64,000 nucleotides of DNA from Candidatus Kaiserbacteria bacterium RIFCSPLOWO2_01_FULL_50_24 (GCA_001783335.1 MFLU01000010.1:30122-94121), one strand, 5' to 3'; positions 552 to 52,645 are shown, numbered from the stretch's first letter. A program made the numbers and translations. Notes: generated from the sequence alone by a model not told the origin.

Positions 552-587
552 TGTAAAAATAAAATATCACGAAGAAATCCACACAGT

Positions 588-766
588 TTAAATCCAAATT
601 TCAAAGTTCAAATGTCAAATAAAATCCAAAACTTAAATATCAAATACAACCCGCGTCGCAAAGAGTGGGATGCGTTTAGTCATTTGAATTTTGGGCTTTG
701 TTTGACCTTTGGATTTTGACATTTGAAATTACTTTTAATTTCGGGCTTTGAAATTTGGATTTACTT
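588..766. repeat. Family-A MITE-like foldback element (arms built from aaatccaaat / caaagttcaaa / aaaatccaaa units)
   Basis: A second copy at 60979-61122 has a nearly identical 55-nt left arm. The right arm is an imperfect reverse complement of the left. Confidence 0.75.
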
Positions 767-963
767 AAGGATATCCACACCCCCATCTTGCGTCATCGCC
801 AACACTTGGCATATTCTTACTCTTGGTGAGGGTGGAGCACCGGAAGAATGACTCCCACGACCATCAGGCTTCGGCCTTCGGCGTGCGACCCTCCCTTCCA
901 AACATCTGCCCTCACTGCTTCTCTTCGAGCTCGCACCTCGCGGGCTCTTTTGTTTCTAAAAAA

Positions 964-989
964 CATGCCCCACGGATTTCCGTGGGGCA
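964..989 (-). terminator. Intrinsic terminator for the minus-strand repeat-protein gene (perfect palindrome atgccccacggaTTtccgtggggcat followed by a T-run on the minus strand)
   Basis: A 12-bp GC-rich stem is followed by TTTTTTAG on the minus strand, immediately 3' of the stop at 997. Confidence 0.7.
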
Positions 990-996
990 TACATGA

Positions 997-1605
997 CTAT
1001 TCGGCCTCAAGCGTTGAGAAAACGGCGAAGGGTCGAAATACTTTCCCCGGTACTTTTTGAAAAGCGAGACCGACAGAATTTATTGCCTTTTGACCAGCGT
1101 TTTGGTACGCGATGCCGAAACCCTGTGTGGCCTCCGTTCCCGCATTCTGGACCGCGATGCCGCCCATCTGCGTAACATCTGCCTCCGCATTTTGGAACGC
1201 GATGCCGAAACCATGCACGGCATCTTCCCCCGAGTTTTGGTACGCGATGCCGTAAAACTGTACGGCCCTCGTTCCCGCGTTTTGGACCGCGATGCCGAGA
1301 AACTGTCCGGCATTCGTCCCCGCGCTTTGATATCCAGCGTTCACCATAGCGAACGCGTCCCTCTCTGCACTCTGATACACGGAGAATAGCGAGTACACGC
1401 CATTTTCCGAGCGGGCGTTTCCTGCTATCGTCCAGACATTTCCGCCGATATTGAAGGGCATTACCAAGGCGGCGATGACAAGAAGGGCCCAAAGGTCGCG
1501 TTTAGTGGGGTATCTGGACCACGCATTGTCGAGCGACACCCAGAGCAAAAAACAACCAAAGCCCGAAATGACAAACAGGAATATGTTTATTATACCGATT
1601 TCCAT
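997..1605 (-). CDS. Hypothetical membrane-anchored protein with about five tandem 15-aa repeats (GIAxQNAGxxAxQxF)
   Basis: There is an N-terminal TM helix. The repeat region is encoded by a 45-bp tandem DNA repeat (cgcgatgccg recurs every 45 nt, 1090-1330). A dedicated terminator hairpin lies downstream. Other frames are also open across the repeat, so the choice of frame is supported mainly by the TM segment and the terminator. Confidence 0.55.
   Translation of the reverse strand: MEIGIINIFLFVISGFGCFLLWVSLDNAWSRYPTKRDLWALLVIAALVMPFNIGGNVWTIAGNARSENGVYSLFSVYQSAERDAFAMVNAGYQSAGTNAGQFLGIAVQNAGTRAVQFYGIAYQNSGEDAVHGFGIAFQNAEADVTQMGGIAVQNAGTEATQGFGIAYQNAGQKAINSVGLAFQKVPGKVFRPFAVFSTLEAE
1090..1330. 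repeat. 45-bp tandem repeat, about 5 copies, inside the 997..1605 gene
   Basis: The motif ttttgg(a/t)(a/c)cgcgatgccg recurs at 1109, 1154, 1199, 1244 and 1289. Confidence 0.8.
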
Positions 1606-4217: not shown

Positions 4218-4440
4218 TAAAAACTAAAAATGAAAAATGAAAAACGACCCCGCACCAAAAATCTCACCATTCCTCTTTATGCATTCAAACCACGTTCGCA
4301 GATTTTGGTACGGGGCATGCAATGAAAAATTAAAAGTTAGGCTCAAGGGTGCTCCCGACGGAATGTAACTTTTAACTTTTAACTTTTAACTTTTAACTTT
4401 TAACTGCAATTTTTACCTTTTCATTTTTACTTTTTAATTT
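4218..4440. repeat. Family-B-related AT-rich foldback element containing an (AACTTTT)5 tandem heptamer at 4367-4401
   Basis: The left arm aaaactaaaaatgaaaaatgaaaaacga and right arm ttttaccttttcatttttactttttaattt are inverted copies. The arm motif is shared with the repeats at 16251, 18171 and 18621. Confidence 0.7.
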
Positions 4441-4927: not shown

Positions 4928-5743
4928 GTGGTTGGAATGTCGTCTTACTATAAGCCGGATAGAAATCCAAATTGGAATTATGGTGGGGAGCGCTTTCGGC
5001 TCTCGCGCTCGAAAATTAGCCTCTTTTTAGATTGTCCGCGTTGTTTTTATATAGACAACAAGCTCGGCACGGCGCGCCCGCCCGGCTATCCGTTTGCCTT
5101 AAATAGCGCTGTGGACGCGCTTTTCAAAAAAGAATTTGACGCGCACCGTGCGAATGGCACAAGGCATCCTTTGATGGAGCAATATGATGTGGACGCCGTG
5201 CCGTTTGACGACCCGCGCATGGATGGGTGGCGCGATTCTCTCCGCGGCGGTGTGGTTTACAAACACAAATCCGGTTTTACCGTGTGTGGCGGTGTAGATG
5301 ACGTCTGGGTCAAGCCGAACGGCGAACTTATCGTGGTGGATTACAAAGCGACAAGCAAGGATGAGAAAATAGAGGCGCTTGATAAGGCGTGGCACGATGG
5401 CTATAAGCGGCAAATGGAAATATATCAGTGGCTCTTTCGCCAGAATGATTTTAAGGTTTCCGACACCGGCTATTTTGTGTATGCGAATGCATCTAAGGAT
5501 AGAAAAGCATTTGATGGCGTACTTGAATTTGAAGTAACGCTTGTGCCGTACAAGGGCGACGATTCGTGGGTGGAGGGTGCTATCCAAAATATTCATGTGT
5601 GTCTTGAGAGCGAAACGATCCCGACCGCATCGGAGGATTGCGACCATTGCCGATATCGCGAAGCGGCTAGGAAAAAGCTCTTGGCGCATGCAACAAAAGG
5701 CACTGAGAAGAAAAAGGACAAACAGGAAACGTTGGGGTTATGA
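4928..5743 (+). CDS. PD-(D/E)XK nuclease with Cys clusters (Cas4/RecB-nuclease-like, standalone)
   Basis: Motifs LIVVDYKAT and QMEIYQW match RecB-nuclease motifs II and III. N-terminal CPRC and C-terminal CDHC residues are positioned like the Fe-S cysteines of Cas4/AddB. Confidence 0.6.
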   Translation: MVGMSSYYKPDRNPNWNYGGERFRLSRSKISLFLDCPRCFYIDNKLGTARPPGYPFALNSAVDALFKKEFDAHRANGTRHPLMEQYDVDAVPFDDPRMDGWRDSLRGGVVYKHKSGFTVCGGVDDVWVKPNGELIVVDYKATSKDEKIEALDKAWHDGYKRQMEIYQWLFRQNDFKVSDTGYFVYANASKDRKAFDGVLEFEVTLVPYKGDDSWVEGAIQNIHVCLESETIPTASEDCDHCRYREAARKKLLAHATKGTEKKKDKQETLGL

Positions 5744-6016
5744 ACACATTTGTTGAGACAGTGTGTGGCATTGTGAGGAGAATTCCGATAGGGAAAACTA
5801 TGACCTATGGCGAGGTGGCGCGGGCCGCTGGCAAGCCCCGAGCGTGTCGAGGGGTCGGAGCTATTATGCGCGCAAATTACGACCCCGCTATTCCATGCCA
5901 TCGCGTTGTGTGTGTGTGTGGACGGAAACTTAGGCGGCTACAATCGTGGTGGCACAAAACAAAAAAGAATTTTACTTATGCGCGAAAAAATTCAGAGCCC
6001 CAACACAATGAATTGA
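5740..6016 (+). pseudogene. ogt: Methylated-DNA-protein-cysteine methyltransferase (MGMT/Ogt, single-domain form), frameshifted inside a (TG)7 tract
   Basis: Frame 1 gives ...TYGEVARAAGKPRACRGVGAIMRANYDPAIPCHRVV. The rest of the conserved domain (VDGNLGGYNRGGTKQKRILLMREKI) continues in the +1 frame after gttgtgtgtgtgtgtgg at 5906-5919. Confidence 0.6.
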
Positions 6017-6042
6017 CCACCGGAGTAAATATCGACGGTGTC

Positions 6043-6415
6043 ATGGAAAACGAGAACACAATCTACGTAAGTGACTCAAAAAATGGCAAGGGGCTTTTCT
6101 CCGGTCGGTTGATTAAGAGTGGCGAAAAAATCATTGAATTCCACGGGCCAAAAAAGAGGATGCAGGATTTGCCAAATCCATACAGCGCTGTAGATGACCA
6201 CTATGTACAAACGGGATATATTTAAAGGACAAGAAATTACCTGGGATTACTCAACCACAATGGATGAAGACGATTGGGAATTGGATTGTGTATGCGCAAA
6301 CGCGCTATGTCGCGGTAAGGTTCGGGATTTTAAATATCTGCCCAATGAATTGAAATCAAAATATACACACCTCGGTATAGTTCCGGACTATAATTTGAAG
6401 TATGCCCCACTTTAA
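6043..6415 (+). pseudogene. SET-domain protein (putative protein-lysine methyltransferase), interrupted by a frameshift at an (AT)3 run near 6216-6221
   Basis: The N-terminal SET region (GKGLFSGRLIKSGEKIIEFHGP) ends at a stop at 6225. The SET C-terminal and post-SET region (FKGQEITWDY...CVCANALCRGKV) continues in the +1 frame from 6194. No NHSC motif is detectable. Confidence 0.45.
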
Positions 6416-6418
6416 ATT

Positions 6419-7009
6419 ATGTTAAATGCATACACTGAAATGAAAAAAGTTCGCGATGAGGTATTCTCGCTTGACGGCGAATTGGCGGAATATAGAAAAA
6501 AGAATAATTATTTTGCGGTTTTGGGAGAGGGGAGCCACGATGCGAACATTATGTTTATCGGCGAGGCACCTGGTAGAAATGAGGCAAAAACCGGCCGGCC
6601 GTTTTGTGGCGCGGCCGGGCGTATCTTGGACGACCTTCTCCTTTCCATCAACGTGCCGCGCGAGGATGTGTATATTACCAACATTGTGAAAGACAGGCCG
6701 CCGGAAAATCGCGACCCGCTACCGTCTGAAATTGAACTCTATGCGCCGTTTCTAGACCGTCAAATTGATATCATCAAGCCGAAAATACTTGCAACGCTTG
6801 GCAGATTTTCCATGGAATATATCATGCGGAAGTTTGAGCTCGTGTTTGAGCTGGAATCCATCAGCGCGGCCCACGGCAAAATGTACGATGCCTTTGCCTC
6901 GTATGGCGCGATTAAAATCATTCCTCTCTACCACCCCGCCGCCGCCATCTATAATCAGTCTCTCAAAGAAACCCTCAAAAAGGACTTCCAAGAGCTTAAA
7001 ACCCCGTAA
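6419..7009 (+). CDS. Uracil-DNA glycosylase, family 4
   Basis: It carries the GEAPGRNEAKTGRPFCGAAGRILD motif and a C-terminal HPAA segment. Confidence 0.85.
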   Translation: MLNAYTEMKKVRDEVFSLDGELAEYRKKNNYFAVLGEGSHDANIMFIGEAPGRNEAKTGRPFCGAAGRILDDLLLSINVPREDVYITNIVKDRPPENRDPLPSEIELYAPFLDRQIDIIKPKILATLGRFSMEYIMRKFELVFELESISAAHGKMYDAFASYGAIKIIPLYHPAAAIYNQSLKETLKKDFQELKTP

Positions 7010-7766
7010 AACCCTAGAGGCGTCGCCTCTAGGATTTATCAGAACGAACTCTCAGTCTCCGTGTAATAGGTAGCGGCATCACGCAAGACAGATGAAAGTT
7101 TTGGAAGACCGTCTGCCAATATGTTGTATACATTGTCGTCTAATATCGCTCGTTCTACGCGTTCCAATCCGCAGTAGTCCGGCATGCTGGAAAAAGGATA
7201 ATTTAAAAGTTTGTGTTCCAGATTTTTAAAATCAGATACTTTTCCATGTTTCCAATTAGGTTCAAACTTTTCCGCCACATTCAGATGAATATATTGAAGA
7301 ACATGACGTAGGTACGTTTCGTCGTCAACATGCTTGGAACGAAACGGCTTCACAAATATATTGCCGACGCGCGAGCGTTTTTCATTAAAATACATTGCAT
7401 ATCCGGTTCCAAGTTTTTGCATGAATTTGGATATGCCTCTGTCTTCGATCTCTTGCATTAAAATATGGTAGTGGTTTGGCATGAGGGAGTATCCGCCAAT
7501 GGCGACGATATTTTGTTCACGAGGCAGTTGTAAGATATCGTGATGGGGCATATGTTGAAAATTTCCGCGAACAATTGGTTTCGTATCGTTCGACAAGTAC
7601 ATTAGCTCGACGAATCTGTTGCAGTCATCCCCGGTTTCAAAAGTGGTACGTTTGTCAATGCCACGATCAAAGCAGTGATACCACTCGTTGATGGCGAAAG
7701 GAGTGCGTCTATATCCCATACTAACCAACCATAACATAATCCTAGAGGCGTTGCCTCTAGGATTAC
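7008..7766 (-). mobile_element. REP-RAYT-REP unit: an IS200/IS605-like HUH (Y1) transposase gene flanked on both sides by the palindrome cctagaggcg(t/c)(c/t)gcctctagg
   Basis: REP copies lie at 7013-7033 and 7741-7761, a few nt outside the stop (7039) and start (7737) of the transposase ORF. A third copy is at 9657-9677. Confidence 0.65.
7039..7737 (-). CDS. REP-associated tyrosine transposase (RAYT) / IS200-like Y1 transposase
   Basis: The HUH motif LMPNHYHILM and a downstream catalytic-Tyr region (RHVLQYIHLNVAEK) match the Y1_Tnp family. The gene is flanked by REP palindromes. Confidence 0.65.
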   Translation of the reverse strand: MLWLVSMGYRRTPFAINEWYHCFDRGIDKRTTFETGDDCNRFVELMYLSNDTKPIVRGNFQHMPHHDILQLPREQNIVAIGGYSLMPNHYHILMQEIEDRGISKFMQKLGTGYAMYFNEKRSRVGNIFVKPFRSKHVDDETYLRHVLQYIHLNVAEKFEPNWKHGKVSDFKNLEHKLLNYPFSSMPDYCGLERVERAILDDNVYNILADGLPKLSSVLRDAATYYTETESSF

Positions 7767-15639: not shown

Positions 15640-15800
15640 GCAAATATATTTCAACCTGCAAATGGCTACGAATTTACAAAAAGCACCAAATTCCAAGCAC
15701 CAAATCACAATGAACAAAATACAAAATACAAAACAAAATACGTTTGAGACATTAGGATTTAGAATTTCGGTATTGTTTGGAATTTGGGATTTGTAATTTG
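15640..15800. repeat. Family-C intergenic repeat (ccaagcaccaaatcacaa ... tttggaatttg-gatttgtaatttg)
   Basis: Its ends are shared with 23305-23455 (inverted orientation) and 30271-30410, with fragments at 46903-46958 and inside leuS at 50612-50686. Confidence 0.75.
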
Positions 15801-15815
15801 TTATTTTCCTTATCT

Positions 15816-16250
15816 ATGGGTAAAAAACGCATAATTCGAAAAAGCGGCGGCTCGGTAGACCAAGGCCTTAAATCGAGGTCGTTAGCTCGTGTTGCAAAAA
15901 AGAACATGCTCGCCGGTACTCTTCATATTCAGGCAACGTACAACAACACAAAGGTACTGCTTGCCGATAAGGAGGGCAACACGGTTGCGTGGTCGTCTTC
16001 CGGAGCACTCGGATTCTCCGGCGCAAAGAAAGGAACACCGTTTGCGGCGGCGAAAGTTGGAGAGCTCATTGGTGAGAAAGCAAATATCATCGGCGTTAAA
16101 GAGGTTGATGTAGTTATTCGGGGCGTCGGTGCAGGTAGGGAATCGGCCTTGCGCGCGTTTGCGTCAAAAGGAGTTGACGTATCGCGCATAAGAGACAATA
16201 CCCCCATTCCGCACAATGGGCCGAGACCGCCGAAGCCACGCAGAGTTTAA
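15816..16250 (+). CDS. rpsK: 30S ribosomal protein S11
   Basis: The sequence MGKKRIIRKSGG...LHIQATYNNT matches S11. The start was set at the internal Met rather than the ORF-track start. Confidence 0.95.
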   Translation: MGKKRIIRKSGGSVDQGLKSRSLARVAKKNMLAGTLHIQATYNNTKVLLADKEGNTVAWSSSGALGFSGAKKGTPFAAAKVGELIGEKANIIGVKEVDVVIRGVGAGRESALRAFASKGVDVSRIRDNTPIPHNGPRPPKPRRV

Positions 16251-16378
16251 ATTAAAAACTAAAAGTGAAAAATGAAAAACGACAACTTAAAATGTAAAAC
16301 CACACACACGCTTCTCGGAAGTTTTTAACTTTTCATTGTCGTTTTTAGATTTTCATTTTAAATTTTAAACTTGTTATT
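16251..16378. repeat. Family-B intergenic foldback repeat (arms aaaaatgaaaaacgacaa / ttgtcgtttttagattttcattt, core cacacgcttctcgg)
   Basis: It is nearly identical to 18621-18748, and a truncated copy lies at 18171-18266. Confidence 0.8.
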
Positions 16379-18266: not shown

Positions 18267-18620
18267 GTGCGTCATCACAATAAAAACAGAATACTGGGTC
18301 GCACAAAAAGGCAACGTACAGCGCTTTTACGCGGCTTGGCGCGTTCACTTGTGCTTCACGGCGCCATTGTGACTACCGAGGCGAAAGCAAAAGAGCTTCG
18401 TCCGTTCATAGAGCGTGTTGTCACAGATGGTAAGAAGAAGACGCTTGCCTCACGTCGTTCCGTGACGACCAAGCTGGCTAGCTCACGTGAAGCGACTCAA
18501 AAACTTTACGAAACGTACGCGACACGTTTCATAAACCGCGCAGGCGGATATACGCGCATTGTAAAACTCGGGACACAAGGTAAGCGTGTGGGCGAAATGG
18601 CGAGGATAGAGTTTGTATAA
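18267..18620 (+). CDS. rplQ: 50S ribosomal protein L17
   Basis: The translation matches L17. Confidence 0.95.
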   Translation: MRHHNKNRILGRTKRQRTALLRGLARSLVLHGAIVTTEAKAKELRPFIERVVTDGKKKTLASRRSVTTKLASSREATQKLYETYATRFINRAGGYTRIVKLGTQGKRVGEMARIEFV

Positions 18621-18748
18621 ATTAAAAACTAAAAGTGAAAAATGAAAAACGACAATTTAAAATGTAAAACGGCACACACGCTTCTCGGCAGTTTTTAACT
18701 TTTCATTGTCGTTTTTAGATTTTCATTTTAAATTTTAAACTTGTTGTT
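18621..18748. repeat. Family-B repeat, full copy
   Basis: It is nearly identical to 16251-16378. Confidence 0.8.
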
Positions 18749-30270: not shown

Positions 30271-30410
30271 AATCCCAAGCACCAAGCACCAAATCACAAA
30301 CAATATCTAAATTCCAATTACTAAATACTAAACACGACGTACCCATTTTGAATTTGTTATTTCGGTGATTTGAATTTGTTTGGAATTTGTTATTTGTAAT
30401 TTGGAATTTA
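30271..30410. repeat. Family-C intergenic repeat
   Basis: See the entry at 15640. Confidence 0.75.
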
Positions 30411-30412
30411 TT

Positions 30413-31750
30413 ATGTCAAGTATGGAACGTACTCTCATAAAAAATCTCTCGGAAAATATCGGGAAAGCCGTCTCGGTAAGCGGCTGGGTATCGGTACGGC
30501 GCGACCAGGGAAAACTCGTATTTTTTGAGATTCGCGACCGTTCTGGAAGCGTACAGGGGGTGGTGTTGCCAAAGTCCGATGCCATTGAGGCGGCAAAGGG
30601 GGTGCGCCCGGAGTATGTCGTTTCCATATCAGGCCAAGTGAATAAACGACCGGAAAAAAATGTGAACCCGAATGTACAAAATGGCGATATTGAGCTTGAG
30701 ATACAAGAAATTGAGATACTTTCTAAAGCGGAGACACCGTTTGAGCTTGGTGCCGAGCTCAACCTTGATACCTATTTAGACCATCTGCCATACACCGTAC
30801 GCTCGCCACGGGCGCGAGATATTTTTGCCCTGCAGGCGACCATCATAGAGGCGTTTCGCGACTCGCTCCGTAAACGCGATTTCGTTGAATTTCAGGCACC
30901 GGCAATCGTAGGAGGCGATGCCGAGGGTGGCGCCGCCGCGTTTAAGGTTGATTACTACTACGACCAAAAGGCGTACCTTGCCACAAGTCCCCAGCTCTAT
31001 AAGCAGATCATGGTTGGCGCGTTTGAGAGAGTATTCACAACACCGAAGATTTGGCGGGCGGAAAAACACGCTACCCCCCGCCATCTTTCCGAGCTCACAC
31101 AAATGGATTTTGAGATGGGATTCATCAAAGACCATTTTGATGTGATGGATGCGCTTGAAACCACCATGCGTGATGTGGTAGCGGTCGTGCGCCACAAGCA
31201 CGCCGACGCACTTCAGCGTTTCAATGTTGAATTGCCCAAGCTTCCTAATGAGAAGTTTCCGATACTCAAACTGAAAGAGGCGCAAGAGTTGCTCGGCGTA
31301 CCGCATGAGCCAGATCTTGAACCCGAGCAGGAACGACTGCTTCACGAGTGGGCGCTTAAAGAGCACGACTCAGATTTTGTTTTTGTAACACATTTTCCTA
31401 CATCCAAGCGTCCGTTCTATACATATGAAGACCCGGAAGATTCCGGCCATACACGTTATTTTGACCTGCTTTTCCGCGGGCTCGAAATAAACTCCGGTGG
31501 TCAGCGCGTGCATGAGCACGATGTGCTTGTGGAACGCATTAGACAAAAGGGGTTAGACCCGGAAAAATTCGCTTTTTATTTGCAAACATTCAAAGTGGGC
31601 ATGCCACCTCACGGCGGGTGCTCCACTGGCCTAGAGCGCTTAACTGCGCGCATGTTGGGACTTGCAAACATTCGTGAAGCCACTCTCTTCCCGCGCGATA
31701 TGACCCGTATTGACGCTCGCTTATCGGAAAATACGGAAGAAGAAACATGA
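30413..31750 (+). CDS. aspS: Aspartyl-tRNA synthetase, archaeal/short class IIb type (an AsnRS assignment cannot be excluded)
   Basis: It has an OB-fold N-terminus, class II motifs (FRAEDxxxxRH-like, GGCSTGLERL), and a length of about 445 aa. Confidence 0.85.
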   Translation: MSSMERTLIKNLSENIGKAVSVSGWVSVRRDQGKLVFFEIRDRSGSVQGVVLPKSDAIEAAKGVRPEYVVSISGQVNKRPEKNVNPNVQNGDIELEIQEIEILSKAETPFELGAELNLDTYLDHLPYTVRSPRARDIFALQATIIEAFRDSLRKRDFVEFQAPAIVGGDAEGGAAAFKVDYYYDQKAYLATSPQLYKQIMVGAFERVFTTPKIWRAEKHATPRHLSELTQMDFEMGFIKDHFDVMDALETTMRDVVAVVRHKHADALQRFNVELPKLPNEKFPILKLKEAQELLGVPHEPDLEPEQERLLHEWALKEHDSDFVFVTHFPTSKRPFYTYEDPEDSGHTRYFDLLFRGLEINSGGQRVHEHDVLVERIRQKGLDPEKFAFYLQTFKVGMPPHGGCSTGLERLTARMLGLANIREATLFPRDMTRIDARLSENTEEET

Positions 31751-46902: not shown

Positions 46903-46954
46903 AGTTTTGGTATTTGATATTGTTATTTATTTGGAATTTGTGTTTTGTAATTTG

Positions 46955-48235
46955 TTATTTGCCAGTGAGTAGCAACTCAATGGCCGCCTCCATCTGCGGA
47001 TCGCGCTTCGCTTCCCTGTCTTCGTCAGAAATTTCCACCTCAACATCCGGCACGATGCCATCTTGCGGGATTTGCGCCCCATCGGGTCCGAGCCAACGCG
47101 CCACGGTAATCTTCAGTGCCGTTTCTGGAGTAATGTCCACCAATTCCTGCACTGAGCCCTTGCCAAAGGTGCTTTCTCCGACAAGTGTTGCTTTACCGTA
47201 ATGCTGGAGCGCCACGGCAAAAATTTCTGAAGCGGAGGCAGAGCCTTGGTCTATAAGAACAACCACTTTCAAATTGTTATTAAAAATATCGTACCCGCGA
47301 CTTCTGTGAACAATATTCCCTACATTTCCCCCGTAATCTTCTTCCACAACGATCTTTCCGGATGGCAAAAACCAACTCGCCATTTCCACCGCCGCCTCAA
47401 GATAGCCACCCGGATTGCCACGCAGATCAATGATAAGATTTTGTGAACCGGATTCTACGAATTCACGCAAGGCACTCCTGAAAAGCCCCGCAGAATTTGC
47501 CGAAAAATTCATAAGTTCAATAACAAACACGTCTTGTTTTGCTTCCTTGGAATCCCCGCTTTCCGTACTGATGGTTTGCTTTATGCGCTCCGTACTGATA
47601 GTGGGGATGTCAATGGTGTCGCGCGTAACGCTAATGTCGCGCGGCTCGCTCCATCCTTCGCGCACGACCGTAAGCACAACCACCGTCCCTTTCGGGCCAC
47701 GAATGCGGCGCACTGCTCCGCTAATGTCTAGGCCGCGTGTCTCGAGATGATCTATATGCGTAATTCTGTCGCCACTTTTTAACCCGGCACGTTCCGCAGG
47801 CGTCCCCTTAAGCGGTGACACCACTGTAAGCACCTGGTTGCGTACGGCAATTTCCATACCTACGCCCTCGAAACTTCCGTTCATGTCTTCGCCAAAAATT
47901 TGATTTTCAACGGGCGGCAAAAAGAAGGTATAGGGATCATCAAGCGAGTTCGCAAGGCCTTGTATCATTCCCCATACGCGAATCTCTTCAACACTTGCAG
48001 TGGTTGTCGGGGTTGAGGTAGAAACGGCAGCGGGAACAAAACGCTCGTCAATAATACGCCACGCCTTCCAGACTGGCGAAAAATTGACTCCTTCCGGCGG
48101 TGTCTCCGCTAACATCGCAAGAGAAACATCCGTGCGCGCACCCATTACCAAACCGATAGAGAAGCTGACCGCAGTAAGGCCCACCACACCAAGCACGAGA
48201 AGCGCGCGTCTATTGTGTTGTGATGTTTCTGGCAT
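46955..48235 (-). CDS. ctpA: Carboxyl-terminal processing protease (S41) with a PDZ domain
   Basis: It has the GNPGGYL motif, the LIDQGSASASEIFA motif and a PDZ segment. Confidence 0.9.
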   Translation of the reverse strand: MPETSQHNRRALLVLGVVGLTAVSFSIGLVMGARTDVSLAMLAETPPEGVNFSPVWKAWRIIDERFVPAAVSTSTPTTTASVEEIRVWGMIQGLANSLDDPYTFFLPPVENQIFGEDMNGSFEGVGMEIAVRNQVLTVVSPLKGTPAERAGLKSGDRITHIDHLETRGLDISGAVRRIRGPKGTVVVLTVVREGWSEPRDISVTRDTIDIPTISTERIKQTISTESGDSKEAKQDVFVIELMNFSANSAGLFRSALREFVESGSQNLIIDLRGNPGGYLEAAVEMASWFLPSGKIVVEEDYGGNVGNIVHRSRGYDIFNNNLKVVVLIDQGSASASEIFAVALQHYGKATLVGESTFGKGSVQELVDITPETALKITVARWLGPDGAQIPQDGIVPDVEVEISDEDREAKRDPQMEAAIELLLTGK

Positions 48236-49768: not shown

Positions 49769-52645
49769 CTAAGTTCTTAAAACAAAGTTTACAAGGCGAT
49801 TTGGAACGACGATTACTTTTACCACTTCCCTGCCCTGTAGTCGCGTGGCCACCACTTCACGAGCGGCGCGTTCGTGCTCGACTTTGTCTGCCCTCGTAGC
49901 GATGGTCACCTCGCCGCGCACCTTGCCATCTATCTGCACGGCAATGGTTACCGTTTCGTCTTTCAGAAACTTTTCATCATATTCCGGCCACTTTTGGAGA
50001 TGAATGGACCCTTTTCCGCCACATTGAGACCATAGCTCCTCCGCGACATGCGGCACAAATGGAGCAAGGAGTTTCAAGAATATTTCCCACTGTTTTTTTC
50101 CTATCGTTTTTTCTTTCTCTGCGGCATTCATAAAAATCATCAATTGACTTATTGCCGTATTGAATTTGAACGCCGCAATATCTTCCGTAATTTTCTTTAT
50201 TGTTCGGTGTAAAGATGTTTGCAGATTTGGATTTTCTGGAAGCTTAAAGCTAGAAGCTGGAAGCTGACCCCGTCGCCATATACGCTCCAAAAAACGGCGC
50301 ACGCCTATCAGACTCTCGGTTTTCCATGCAATCGTATTCTCAAATGGCCCCATGAACATTTCGTAAAGGCGTAGAGTATCAGCTCCGTAAAGCTTCACCA
50401 CGTCGTCGGGATCAATGGTGTTTTTGAAGCGCTTACTCATTTTTCGGCCGTCTTCGGCAAGCACAAGCCCGACAGTATGAAGCTGTATGAATGGTTCCAT
50501 CGTTGAGACGATGCCTATGTCGTGCAGAAATTTGTGCCAGAAACGGGCATATATGAGGTGTCTCGTTGCATGTTCCACGCCGCCCACATACACGTCAACC
50601 GGCAACCATTTTTGTATTTTGTTTTGAAGTTTGGTACTTAGAGATTGTTTGGAATTTGGTACTTGTGATTTGAGATTTTCGCTTATGCAATAAGCGATGT
50701 GGTACCAGCTTGAGCCCGCCCACTGCGGCATCGTATTCGTTTCGCGCCTCCCTTTCCCGCCGCACGTCGGACACTTCGTATTCACCCACTTCGTGATATT
50801 GGCAAGCGGTGATTCACCGGTGCCGGACGGCGCATACGATTTCACTTCCGGCAATATAACTGGCAGATATTTTTCCGACACCGGCACCACGCCGCATTTT
50901 TCGCAATGAATCATGGGGATCGGCTCACCCCAGTATCGCTGGCGCGAAAAAATCCAATCACGCAATTTGTAGGTAGTTTTTGGTGTGCCGAAACGCGCAG
51001 TTATTTTTTTTCTCGCCTCCGCACTATCCGTACCGCTAAACTCGCCCGAATCAATGAGAATACCCTCGCCCATATATGCATCCATGCCAGAAAATATGCG
51101 TTCAGTAATGATCTGTGCTTCAGAATGTTGAAACCGTGTTTTAGTGAGGTCACGGGCGGGTATCCACACCACCTCATGCTTCTCCGCTTCTTTTGGATCA
51201 ATCTTCTCGCGTGCATCGCTTGCAAGCTCAAAAAGCAATAGAGAATTACGTGCAACGCGATTGACCCCCTTGTGCGCCGCATAGAATTCCGCCTGCGCAT
51301 CGCCACCAAGTTTGCGCACAAATCGCACATCGGTGTATCCGGTTTCCTCGGCTATCTCGCGCCGCGCCGACTCGACAACGTCTTCCCCATTCTCCACGCC
51401 GCCCGTAACATACGTGATCCACGGTTGTTTTTTCCAGCGGAGCGTCAGATAGCGATCGGTTTTCGGATCGTACACAATGTTGATCGTTGCACGCCGATGC
51501 ACCACTTCCTTGTTCGGTTGATGCGGATTGGTCGGATCCGGCAGATGCGGCATGATAACGTCGCGTATGGAAATATTGTATTTTTTAGCAAACTCAAAAT
51601 CGCGCTCGTCGTGCGCCGGAACCGCCATAATGGCACCTGTTCCTACACCCGCCAGCACATAGTCTGCGACAAATATCGGTATTTCTTCTTTCGTCGCCGG
51701 ATTAACTGCCCTTATTCCTTCAAGTAGAACTCCCGTCTTTTCCTTATGTTCCTGCCGTTCCAGATCAGACTTTTTTGCTGCAGCTTTTATATAATCCTCC
51801 ACCTCATCTGAATTTACGCAAGTCTGACTTGCGTAAATAGACTGTACGAGCGTATGCTCCGGTGCGAGTGTAAGATATGTCGCTCCAAACAGTGTGTCGG
51901 GTCTCGTTGTAAAAACCTCTATTTGAAATTTGGATTTTAAAATTTGAAATTTTATCAGTGCGCCCTCGGATTTTCCGATCCAATTTCTCTGCAGTTCTTT
52001 TATGTACTCCGGCCACGGCAGAGTGTCGAGGTCGGCAAGCAGTCGGTCGGCGTAGTCGGTAATGCGTAGAACCCATTGCGGCAAGCGTTTTTGCTCCACA
52101 ACCGTGCCGCAGCGCTCGCACGCATTTCCTTCCAGATCTTCATTTGCAAGCCCCGTCTTGCACGACGGACACCAGTTGATCGGCTCATCAGACTGATACG
52201 CGAGGCCTTTTTTAAAAAGCTGGAGAAAGATCCACTGCGTCCACTTGTAGTATTCCGGGTCGGTAGTGTTTATTTCGCGGTCCCAATCGTAGTCAAAACC
52301 TATATGCGAGAGCTGTTCCTTAAAGCGCGCGATGTTTTTCTTCACCGCCACGCGCGGATGCACTTTATTTTGGAGCGCATAGTTCTCCGCCGGAAGACCG
52401 AATGCATCCCACCCCATTGGGTGTAGCACCGATCTTCCGCGCATACGCTGAAATCGCGAGTAAATATCGCTCGCGATGTAGCCCTTGGGATGCCCCACGT
52501 GGAGCCCCTCTCCCGAGGGATACGGAAACATATCAAGTACATAGCACTTCTTTTTTCCTTTTTTTTCAGTGGAGCGGTATACTTTTTTCTTCGCCCATTG
52601 CAGTTGCCATTTTCGCTCAATAGATTTGTGATCGTATCGCTTCAT
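49769..52645 (-). CDS. leuS: Leucyl-tRNA synthetase carrying an inserted Nudix domain (about aa 365-520) and two repeat-derived low-complexity inserts
   Basis: It has HVGH (HIGH), KMSKR, the editing-domain motif TTRPDT and a LeuRS C-terminus. The insertion after the editing domain contains a perfect Nudix box GGVENGEDVVESARREIAEETGY. Confidence 0.95.
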   Translation of the reverse strand: MKRYDHKSIERKWQLQWAKKKVYRSTEKKGKKKCYVLDMFPYPSGEGLHVGHPKGYIASDIYSRFQRMRGRSVLHPMGWDAFGLPAENYALQNKVHPRVAVKKNIARFKEQLSHIGFDYDWDREINTTDPEYYKWTQWIFLQLFKKGLAYQSDEPINWCPSCKTGLANEDLEGNACERCGTVVEQKRLPQWVLRITDYADRLLADLDTLPWPEYIKELQRNWIGKSEGALIKFQILKSKFQIEVFTTRPDTLFGATYLTLAPEHTLVQSIYASQTCVNSDEVEDYIKAAAKKSDLERQEHKEKTGVLLEGIRAVNPATKEEIPIFVADYVLAGVGTGAIMAVPAHDERDFEFAKKYNISIRDVIMPHLPDPTNPHQPNKEVVHRRATINIVYDPKTDRYLTLRWKKQPWITYVTGGVENGEDVVESARREIAEETGYTDVRFVRKLGGDAQAEFYAAHKGVNRVARNSLLLFELASDAREKIDPKEAEKHEVVWIPARDLTKTRFQHSEAQIITERIFSGMDAYMGEGILIDSGEFSGTDSAEARKKITARFGTPKTTYKLRDWIFSRQRYWGEPIPMIHCEKCGVVPVSEKYLPVILPEVKSYAPSGTGESPLANITKWVNTKCPTCGGKGRRETNTMPQWAGSSWYHIAYCISENLKSQVPNSKQSLSTKLQNKIQKWLPVDVYVGGVEHATRHLIYARFWHKFLHDIGIVSTMEPFIQLHTVGLVLAEDGRKMSKRFKNTIDPDDVVKLYGADTLRLYEMFMGPFENTIAWKTESLIGVRRFLERIWRRGQLPASSFKLPENPNLQTSLHRTIKKITEDIAAFKFNTAISQLMIFMNAAEKEKTIGKKQWEIFLKLLAPFVPHVAEELWSQCGGKGSIHLQKWPEYDEKFLKDETVTIAVQIDGKVRGEVTIATRADKVEHERAAREVVATRLQGREVVKVIVVPNRLVNFVLRT

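What the first reader, a model, noticed from the sequence alone, without database searches (positions are those of the whole stretch)
5740..6415. Two adjacent methyltransferase genes (MGMT and a SET-domain protein) are each broken by a frameshift at a short dinucleotide repeat
Seen in sequence: the MGMT active-site segment PCHRVV is followed by gttgtgtgtgtgtgtgg, and the conserved continuation (V)DGNLGGYNRGGTKQKRILLMREKI lies in the +1 frame. Removing or adding one TG unit restores a canonical single-domain Ogt of about 93 aa. The SET protein stops at 6225 within gggatatattt, and its C-terminal half (FKGQEITWDY...CVCANALCRGKV post-SET) continues in the +1 frame. Adding one AT unit fuses the two halves. 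Inference: this could be slipped-strand phase variation, genuine decay, or a homopolymer/dinucleotide assembly error. A SET-domain gene in a bacterium is itself notable, and could be an effector acting on a host or partner.
Basis: seen in the sequence. Interest (0 to 1): 0.5.

Follow-up and report, generated by a model that had tools for sequence, protein, structure and literature searches.

The report
Two adjacent dead methyltransferase genes
In this groundwater Kaiserbacteria genome, a small DNA-repair gene (MGMT) is knocked out of frame by an expanded TG repeat and the neighbouring SET-domain gene has lost its catalytic core to a 116-base deletion; both lesions are real, but this is ordinary gene decay.

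Summary
Both genes are broken at the stated coordinates, and the breaks are not assembly errors. Nine independently assembled contigs match the window exactly, and the frameshifted product is on record from 17 contigs.

MGMT: the frame changes inside (TG)7 at 5907-5920, the longest dinucleotide repeat in the window (0.015 expected by chance). All 115 homologues checked have exactly two residues between PCHRVV and DG. The window has 10 nt there instead of 6. The frame is restored by (TG)8 (a 4-residue linker, seen in 0 of 115) or by (TG)5 (canonical). Removing one unit does not restore it. None of eight other TG-length products exists among about 15 billion public proteins. Two syntenic Kaiserbacteria have an intact 86-87 aa MGMT with non-repetitive DNA at this site.

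SET: this is not an AT slip. Intact homologues are 160-166 aa. Residues 57-93, including NHSC, are missing, which is a 116-nt deletion (116 mod 3 = 2, exactly the observed frame change). The "repaired" protein fails Pfam SET (17.9 bits against a threshold of 22.4). The gene is absent from both syntenic relatives and is GC-poor (0.41 against 0.50), so it was probably acquired and then lost. The family has at least 596 loci across bacteria and archaea.

Verdict: recent, fixed pseudogenes. Read-level phase variation at the TG tract is untested but unlikely.

The parts
4928..5743 (+). Intact PD-(D/E)XK (Cas4-like) nuclease gene. Its stop overlaps the MGMT start (ATGA). Context gene, conserved in synteny.
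   Evidence: Pfam PF12705 at 52.7 bits. The same gene sits directly upstream of MGMT in L012 and L023, with the same 4-nt overlap in L023. 57-67% aa identity.
5740..5906 (+). MGMT/Ogt pseudogene, N-terminal part (frame 1): helix-turn-helix and active-site PCHRVV.
   Evidence: PF01035 at 61.3 bits, profile positions 2-54 of 81. tblastn of P0059 residues 1-57 matches 5740-5910, 72% identity.
5907..5920 (+). (TG)7 microsatellite occupying the position of the 2-residue linker. 10 nt lie between the VV codons and the DG codons, instead of 6. This is the frameshift site.
   Evidence: Sequence. Longest dinucleotide repeat in the window, 0.015 expected. 115 of 115 homologues have a 2-residue linker. 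Relatives have non-repetitive CGC TCG, CGC AGC or CGA AGT here.
5921..6016 (+). MGMT pseudogene, C-terminal part in the +1 frame (DGNLGGYNRGG...MN, stop TGA 6014-6016). All near-invariant residues are still present.
   Evidence: tblastn of P0059 residues 60-83 matches 5921-5992 in frame 2. Alignment A2.
6043..6216 (+). SET-domain pseudogene, N-terminal part (frame 1; NGKGLF SAM-binding motif to HYVQTG). The frame then runs into TAA at 6223-6225.
   Evidence: tblastn of P0001 residues 2-56 matches 6052-6216. Alignment A1. Pfam SET profile positions 1-26 only.
6211..6216 (+). Junction of the roughly 116-nt internal deletion. It removed homologue residues 57-93 (LYMGPSG..DDLINHSCxPN..), which form the catalytic core. 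The two matching frames overlap by 5 nt (6212-6216), so microhomology is possible.
   Evidence: tblastn HSPs end at 6216 (frame 1) and begin at 6212 (frame 2). 37 codons plus 5 nt = 116 nt, and 116 mod 3 = 2, which equals the observed frame change. A1.
6212..6415 (+). SET pseudogene, C-terminal part in the +1 frame (RDIFKGQEITWDYSTTMDEDDWE, post-SET CVCANALC, stop TAA 6413-6415).
   Evidence: tblastn of P0001 residues 94-164, 68% identity. Pfam SET profile positions 89-105 only.
6419..7009 (+). Intact family-4 uracil-DNA glycosylase gene. Native neighbour: in L012 it directly overlaps MGMT.
   Evidence: PF03167 at 114.7 bits. TIGR00758 at 189.8 bits. L012 layout. 77% identity.
7039..7737 (-). 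IS200/RAYT-like tyrosine-transposase ORF. GC-poor and absent from the syntenic relatives. Marks this stretch as variable.
   Evidence: PF01797 at 28 bits. NF047646 below its cut-off. GC 0.42. Absent in L012 and L023.

Best explanation
Both genes are young pseudogenes, fixed in one clonal Candidatus Kaiserbacteria population from the Rifle aquifer. Each carries a single lesion.

(1) MGMT. The native 85-90 aa single-domain O6-alkylguanine alkyltransferase gene sits in a conserved PD-(D/E)XK - MGMT - UDG repair cluster. It acquired a TG microsatellite at the two-codon linker after the PCHRVV active site. The tract now has 7 units, which is 4 nt more than the canonical spacing. Translation leaves the conserved frame after PCHRVVCVC, and the C-terminal strand and helix are not made.

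(2) SET. A small SET/post-SET lysine-methyltransferase gene was inserted between MGMT and UDG, probably by horizontal transfer. It then lost 116 nt by an internal deletion, possibly mediated by microhomology. The deletion removed the NHSC-containing catalytic core and shifted the frame.

Shown: the lesions, their exact nature, their reproducibility across assemblies, the intact orthologues, and the absence of SET in the relatives. Inferred: loss of function, the slippage origin of the tract, the order of events, and horizontal acquisition.
For: Real, not artefact. Nine contigs from independent assemblies carry the identical 676 nt and are 100% identical to the window over 3.7-8.6 kb. The 161-aa frameshifted product is on record from 17 contigs. 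The 60-aa SET fragment is on record from three NCBI Kaiserbacteria MAGs. Other genes tested in the window are full length.

MGMT.
- Halves map to frames 1 and 2 on either side of the tract.
- 115 of 115 homologues have a 2-residue linker.
- The syntenic relatives L012 and L023 have intact 86-87 aa genes with non-repeat DNA at the site.
- Only the (TG)7 product is on record; eight alternative lengths are not.

SET.
- Intact homologues are 160-166 aa, and residues 57-93 are missing.
- The deletion size of 116 nt predicts the frame change.
- The fused protein scores 17.9 bits against a Pfam cut-off of 22.4; intact P0001 scores 56.6.

Acquisition. SET is absent in both syntenic relatives, and in L012 MGMT and UDG overlap. 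GC is 0.41 for SET against 0.50 for the window. Homologues sit in unrelated contexts.

Young. All near-invariant residues of the out-of-frame parts are still intact.
Against: All nine assemblies come from one clonal population, so they exclude assembly error but are not independent evolutionary samples. Consensus sequences cannot show minority TG lengths in the reads. A 7-unit tract is long enough to slip, and the perfect preservation of the out-of-frame MGMT C-terminus also fits an allele that is sometimes ON. No relative closer than 73% MGMT identity is available, so the ancestral state of the tract and the timing are inferred. SET could instead be ancestral and lost in both relatives. The deletion size assumes the ancestor had the same length as today's homologues.
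Confidence: 0.8

Rival explanations
1. Phase variation. The (TG)n tract is a contingency locus. Slipped-strand mispairing switches the alkyltransferase ON ((TG)8 or (TG)5) and OFF ((TG)6/7). The sampled population happens to be mostly OFF, possibly giving a transient mutator state.
For: The tract lies inside the ORF and is far longer than chance allows (0.015 expected). Adding one unit restores a 92-aa ORF that still scores 82.6 bits on PF01035. The out-of-frame C-terminus has no secondary damage.
Against: Every assembly has (TG)7, across samples from several sequencing projects. None of eight alternative length products exists among about 15 billion proteins. The single-step ON state has a 4-residue linker, seen in 0 of 115 homologues. 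The canonical state is two units away through another OFF state. Orthologues have no repeat here. The neighbouring SET gene is irreversibly dead, which suggests relaxed selection at this locus.
Confidence: 0.1
2. Assembly or sequencing error at short repeats. The real genome would have intact genes.
For: Indels at repeats are a common artefact. NCBI's own gene calls on this contig skip the MGMT region (L001).
Against: Nine contigs assembled from different samples and by different pipelines agree to the base. The SET lesion is a 116-nt deletion, not a repeat-length error. Neighbouring genes are intact.
Confidence: 0.02
3. Recoding. A programmed +1 ribosomal frameshift or transcriptional slippage on the TG tract yields functional MGMT from the (TG)7 allele.
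For: Both breaks need a +1 shift. The C-terminal part of MGMT is perfectly conserved.
Against: All 115 homologues inspected, including the two syntenic orthologues, are single uninterrupted ORFs, so the feature is not conserved. No known slippery or stimulatory signal was seen, and Rfam finds nothing in the window. The product would have a 3-residue linker, seen in 0 of 115. For SET, no frameshift can replace 37 missing residues.
Confidence: 0.03
4. Neofunctionalisation. The 161-aa ORF 5740-6225 (MGMT N-part, 42 junk residues, SET N-part) or the 73-aa post-SET ORF 6194-6415 is a new functional protein.
For: Both ORFs are open and are called as genes in most assemblies.
Against: The fusion lacks the C-terminal elements of the MGMT fold and the SET core. 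The linking 42 residues are out-of-frame sequence. No homologue with this architecture was found. It exists only in one clonal population.
Confidence: 0.02

Closest known systems
Single-domain 'MGMT family protein' of Candidatus Kaiserbacteria and other CPR bacteria (e.g. P0059 from GCA_016186765.1; PF01035 / TIGR00589 ogt superfamily)
   Same: Same PCHRVV active site. Same position downstream of a PD-(D/E)XK gene and next to UDG. 72% and 62% identity in the two halves.
   Different: Interrupted by a lineage-specific (TG)7 tract in place of the RS linker codons. The C-terminal third is out of frame.
Small prokaryotic SET + post-SET proteins of 155-170 aa (PF00856), e.g. P0001, P0002, P0004. 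Nearest solved structures by sequence are the SET domains of KMT2/MLL (4z4p_A, E = 5e-12).
   Same: N-terminal NGKG motif, HYVQ, EITWDYSTTMDEDDWE and the CxCx4C post-SET motif are all present. 55-63% (N-part) and 68-71% (C-part) identity to P0001 and P0002.
   Different: Lacks residues 57-93, including NHSCxPN. Frameshifted. Below the Pfam threshold even when fused. Not present at this position in the syntenic relatives.
Simple-sequence-repeat contingency loci of host-adapted bacteria (Haemophilus, Neisseria, Campylobacter; from general knowledge)
   Same: A repeat tract inside a coding region whose unit number sets the reading frame.
   Different: No length polymorphism observed. The single-step ON state is non-canonical. 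The target is a DNA-repair gene in a groundwater CPR bacterium, not a surface or restriction-modification gene.
Other decayed copies of the same SET family (L015: 92 + 71 aa split; L017-L019: 88-aa in-frame deletion, on record from 9 contigs)
   Same: Independent loss of the SET core in other small-genome organisms.
   Different: Different lesions and different genomic contexts.

Membership tests
MGMT/Ogt alkyltransferase (PF01035, TIGR00589) | Domain match above the curated threshold | tested here: met
   N-part alone: PF01035 at 61.3 bits (cut-off 27). (TG)5-repaired: 90.1 bits on PF01035 and 77 bits on TIGR00589 (cut-off 46.4).
MGMT/Ogt alkyltransferase (PF01035, TIGR00589) | Active-site PCHR(V/I) with the acceptor cysteine | tested here: met
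   IPCHRVV is encoded in frame 1 just before the tract.
MGMT/Ogt alkyltransferase (PF01035, TIGR00589) | Uninterrupted ORF with a 2-residue linker, then DGxLGGY and the C-terminal helix | tested here: not met
   10 nt instead of 6 between the VV and DG codons, and the downstream part is in the +1 frame. 115 of 115 homologues have a 2-residue linker.
MGMT/Ogt alkyltransferase (PF01035, TIGR00589) | Alkyl transfer from O6-alkylguanine | not testable with these tools
   Needs a biochemical assay.
SET-domain lysine methyltransferase (PF00856) | Domain match above the Pfam gathering score | tested here: not met
   N-part 12.8 bits and C-part 13.6 bits. Fused 17.9 bits, no domain passing. The gathering score is 22.4. 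Intact P0001 scores 56.6.
SET-domain lysine methyltransferase (PF00856) | NHSCxPN motif (SAM-binding and catalytic core) | tested here: not met
   Invariant N72, H73, S74, C75 in alignment A3. The whole segment (residues 57-93) is absent from the window in every frame.
SET-domain lysine methyltransferase (PF00856) | N-terminal GxG motif, C-terminal E(L/I)xxDY, and post-SET CxCx4C | tested here: met
   NGKGLF, EITWDY and CVCANALC are present.
SSR-mediated phase-variable (contingency) gene | Repeat tract within the ORF, longer than chance | tested here: met
   (TG)7, with 0.015 expected per 64 kb.
SSR-mediated phase-variable (contingency) gene | Tract-length polymorphism within or between populations | tested here: not met
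   At consensus level, 9 of 9 contigs have (TG)7, and eight other length products are absent from the collection. Read-level heterogeneity is not testable here.
SSR-mediated phase-variable (contingency) gene | A single-unit change toggles a functional ON state | tested here: inconclusive
   Adding one unit restores the frame but gives a 4-residue linker (0 of 115 homologues). Removing one unit gives a 63-aa truncation.
Programmed frameshift / recoding site | The frameshift architecture is conserved in homologues | tested here: not met
   All 115 homologues inspected, and both syntenic orthologues, are single ORFs without a repeat.

The most novel reading that the evidence does not exclude
The (TG)7 tract is a true contingency locus in an ultra-small CPR bacterium. 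It would reversibly switch off O6-alkylguanine repair, giving a phase-variable mutator state, with minority ON alleles hidden beneath the consensus assemblies.
Probability: 0.07. Interest if true: 0.55.

Novelty: already known. Interest (0 to 1): 0.15.

Why it matters
It matters little beyond annotation. MGMT and SET in this Kaiserbacteria genome (GCA_001783485.1, contig MFMH01000013.1) should be marked as pseudogenes. The 60-, 73- and 161-aa ORFs now in databases are fragments or a read-through chimera, not proteins. The locus is a clean small example of how reduced CPR genomes lose genes: microsatellite expansion in a native repair gene, and deletion in an acquired one. It also shows that this small SET/post-SET family is patchily spread and repeatedly decays in CPR and DPANN genomes. 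Only if read-level TG length variation were found would it become interesting, as a phase-variable repair gene.

Tried and rejected
- A gapped DNA pattern across the TG tract was scanned against metagenome contigs to find length variants and gave 0 hits. The pattern itself works on the window and on L001-L009, so that collection does not hold this organism. I replaced the scan with an exact look-up of the products of nine tract lengths.
- An exact look-up of the GTG-started PD-(D/E)XK ORF found nothing, because public gene calls use a later start (268 aa).
- The MGMT homologue search did not return the window's own 161-aa product. Its 90% cluster is represented by the 60-aa SET fragment. So absence from that hit list is not evidence about close variants.
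- P0179/L104 first looked like an intact near-identical SET orthologue. It is a different SET gene joined to window-identical DNA from the YSTTMDED codons onward, 126 nt before a scaffold end. It is most likely a chimeric scaffold and was not used as an ancestor.
- The AT-slip explanation for SET was rejected.
- I looked for a second MGMT or SET copy in the window: none.
- Rfam scan of the window: no hits.
- I looked for other split genes among overlapping ORF pairs: none found.
- I did not use the second metagenome scan. The protein search, which includes JGI, Logan, ENA and NCBI, already showed no MGMT relative above 73% identity.

Full report
**Where the window comes from.** The UDG protein encoded at 6419-7009 is found, residue for residue, on NCBI contig MFMH01000013.1 of GCA_001783485.1. 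It is also on contigs from four JGI metagenomes, one ENA assembly and three Logan run assemblies. The 60-aa SET fragment is deposited for three NCBI MAGs named Candidatus Kaiserbacteria bacterium. All nine fetched loci are 100% identical to the window over 3.7-8.6 kb. They therefore represent one clonal population assembled many times from different read sets.

**Checking the observation.**
- The sequence is as described.
- An ORF starts at 5740, overlapping the stop of the upstream PD-(D/E)XK gene in ATGA. It encodes a PF01035 domain up to IPCHRVV (61.3 bits, profile positions 2-54 of 81).
- (TG)7 follows at 5907-5920.
- The conserved continuation DGNLGGYNRGG... is in the +1 frame and ends at 6016.
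- tblastn with the orthologue P0059 places residues 1-57 on 5740-5910 (frame 1) and residues 60-83 on 5921-5992 (frame 2). Only the two linker residues fall in the tract.
- The tract is the longest dinucleotide repeat in the window. First-order Markov simulations give 0.015 tracts of 7 or more units per 64 kb.

**What would restore MGMT.** I rebuilt the ORF with 2 to 12 TG units.
- In-frame products arise only with 2, 5, 8 or 11 units.
- (TG)6 gives a 63-aa truncation, so 'removing one unit' does not repair the gene.
- Among the homologues fetched, 115 of 115 have exactly two residues between PCHR(V/I)(V/I) and DG, mostly RS.
- (TG)5 would give the canonical spacing (linker CV, 90 aa, PF01035 at 90.1 bits).
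- (TG)8, the only single-step repair, gives a 4-residue linker never seen in the family (82.6 bits).

**Orthologues of MGMT.**
- Two syntenic Kaiserbacteria loci carry MnmA - ATP-cone/Mrr - MgtC - PD-(D/E)XK - MGMT. These are L012 (GCA_016186765.1) and L023.
- Their MGMT genes are intact (86 and 87 aa).
- In L012 the MGMT gene directly overlaps UDG.
- Neighbour proteins are 57-77% identical to the window's.
- Their linker DNA is non-repetitive (CGC TCG, CGC AGC), so the TG tract is specific to the window's lineage.

**Is the tract variable?** All nine contigs carry (TG)7. An exact look-up among about 15 billion predicted proteins finds the (TG)7 product on 17 contigs. It finds none of the products expected for 2, 4, 5, 6, 8, 9, 10 or 11 units. 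This excludes assembly error and consensus-level switching. It cannot exclude minority alleles within the reads.

**The SET gene.**
- A search with the joined halves finds 56 relatives. The intact ones are 155-187 aa, mostly 160-166.
- In the alignment, the window's N-part ends at HYVQTG and the C-part resumes at (K)RDIFKGQEITWDY.
- The segment between them..LYMGPSG..DDLINHSCxPNSGL......L.A, is absent.
- tblastn with P0001 maps residues 2-56 to 6052-6216 (frame 1) and residues 94-164 to 6212-6424 (frame 2). So 37 codons are missing and the two matches overlap by 5 nt.
- That corresponds to a 116-nt deletion. Because 116 mod 3 = 2, the deletion alone produces the observed shift to the +1 frame.
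- The 5-nt overlap is compatible with a microhomology-mediated deletion (inference).
- The TAA at 6223-6225 is simply the first stop met after the junction. ATATAT is three units and plays no role.
It scores 17.9 bits with no domain passing, below the gathering score of 22.4. Intact P0001 scores 56.6 bits over profile positions 1-105.
- N, H, S and C of NHSC are invariant in 24 intact members.

**Origin of the SET gene.**
- It is absent from both syntenic relatives.
- Its GC content is 0.41 against 0.50 for the window. The nearby IS200/RAYT-like ORF (7039-7737, minus strand), also absent from the relatives, has GC 0.42.
- Homologues lie in unrelated contexts.
- The most economical reading is insertion between MGMT and UDG followed by decay. 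Ancestral presence with loss in both relatives is not excluded.

**How unusual is a bacterial SET gene?** Not very. These lie in DPANN archaea, many CPR groups (Saccharibacteria, Jorgensenbacteria, Uhrbacteria, Kaiserbacteria), Spirochaetota, Sphingomonas and others. The review PMC3980110 already notes SET genes in free-living and environmental bacteria and in archaea. By sequence, the family is closest to KMT2/MLL-type SET domains among solved structures. Other decayed copies exist: L015 is split into 92 + 71 aa, and L017-L019 carry an 88-aa in-frame deletion form that is on record from nine contigs.

**Age of the lesions.** Each gene has one lesion only. All near-invariant residues of the out-of-frame MGMT C-terminus and of both SET parts are preserved. 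Both inactivations are therefore recent. For MGMT alone, this also fits an allele that is occasionally ON.

**Verdict.** The two genes are really broken. The best explanation is recent, fixed pseudogenisation (confidence 0.8): microsatellite expansion in a native repair gene, and a 116-nt core deletion in an acquired SET gene. The rivals are:
- phase variation at the TG tract, about 0.1, testable only with reads;
- recoding, about 0.03;
- assembly error, about 0.02;
- a new fusion protein, about 0.02.

Nothing here departs from known kinds of genes or known mutational mechanisms, so interest is low.

Noticed in passing
window 552-1450: About 0.9 kb lies between YceG (39-551) and MnmA. In the syntenic relatives L012 and L023 these two genes are adjacent. 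The stretch holds a 45-nt tandem repeat (5.2 copies, 1097-1329) and AT-rich TTTGGAA/TTTGAAA-type arrays with inverted symmetry at 589-764. No Pfam hit for the ORFs there.
   Followed up: partly
window 15776-15806, 30345-30427, 46927-46961, 51921-51952: Similar heptamer arrays (TTTGGAA, TTTGTAA, ATTTGAA) recur at several intergenic spots. They may be a genome-specific intergenic repeat or regulatory motif.
   Followed up: no
window 4366-4434: (TAACTTT) x10 tandem repeat in the gap upstream of the MgtC gene.
   Followed up: no
window 16249-16369 and 18619-18739: Two pairs of TRF rows with the same consensus units (AAATGAA and TTTTAAA), the same copy numbers and the same scores lie exactly 2370 nt apart. 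This suggests a duplicated intergenic segment.
   Followed up: no
window 7039-7737 (-): IS200/REP-associated tyrosine-transposase-like ORF (PF01797 at 28 bits; NF047646 below its cut-off). GC 0.42. Absent from the syntenic relatives, which carry a peptidase M16 gene instead of the window's PepF.
   Followed up: partly
L104 4152-4748 (ENA scaffold ANAN16-1...scaffold_61467): A different, intact 156-aa SET gene lies in an unrelated context (FtsJ, lyase). From the YSTTMDED codons onward it becomes 100% identical to window sequence (about 6245-6541), and the scaffold ends 126 nt after the SET stop. It is probably a chimeric scaffold joined at the ultra-conserved motif. Less likely, it is a real recombinant.
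   Followed up: partly
L017 4668-4934, L018, L019; L015 2264-2757: Other members of this SET family are also decayed. One is an 88-aa form that appears to have lost everything between the two similar KKGE(K/E)I motifs; this form is on record from nine contigs, of which three were fetched. Another is a 92 + 71 aa split. L016 shows many split genes and looks like an error-prone long-read assembly.
   Followed up: partly
window 5740-6225: After the MGMT frameshift, frame 1 happens to stay open across the intergenic spacer and into the SET N-part. Most pipelines therefore call a 161-aa chimeric 'protein'. In the 90% clustering it is represented by the 60-aa SET fragment, which hides it from MGMT-based searches.
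   Followed up: yes
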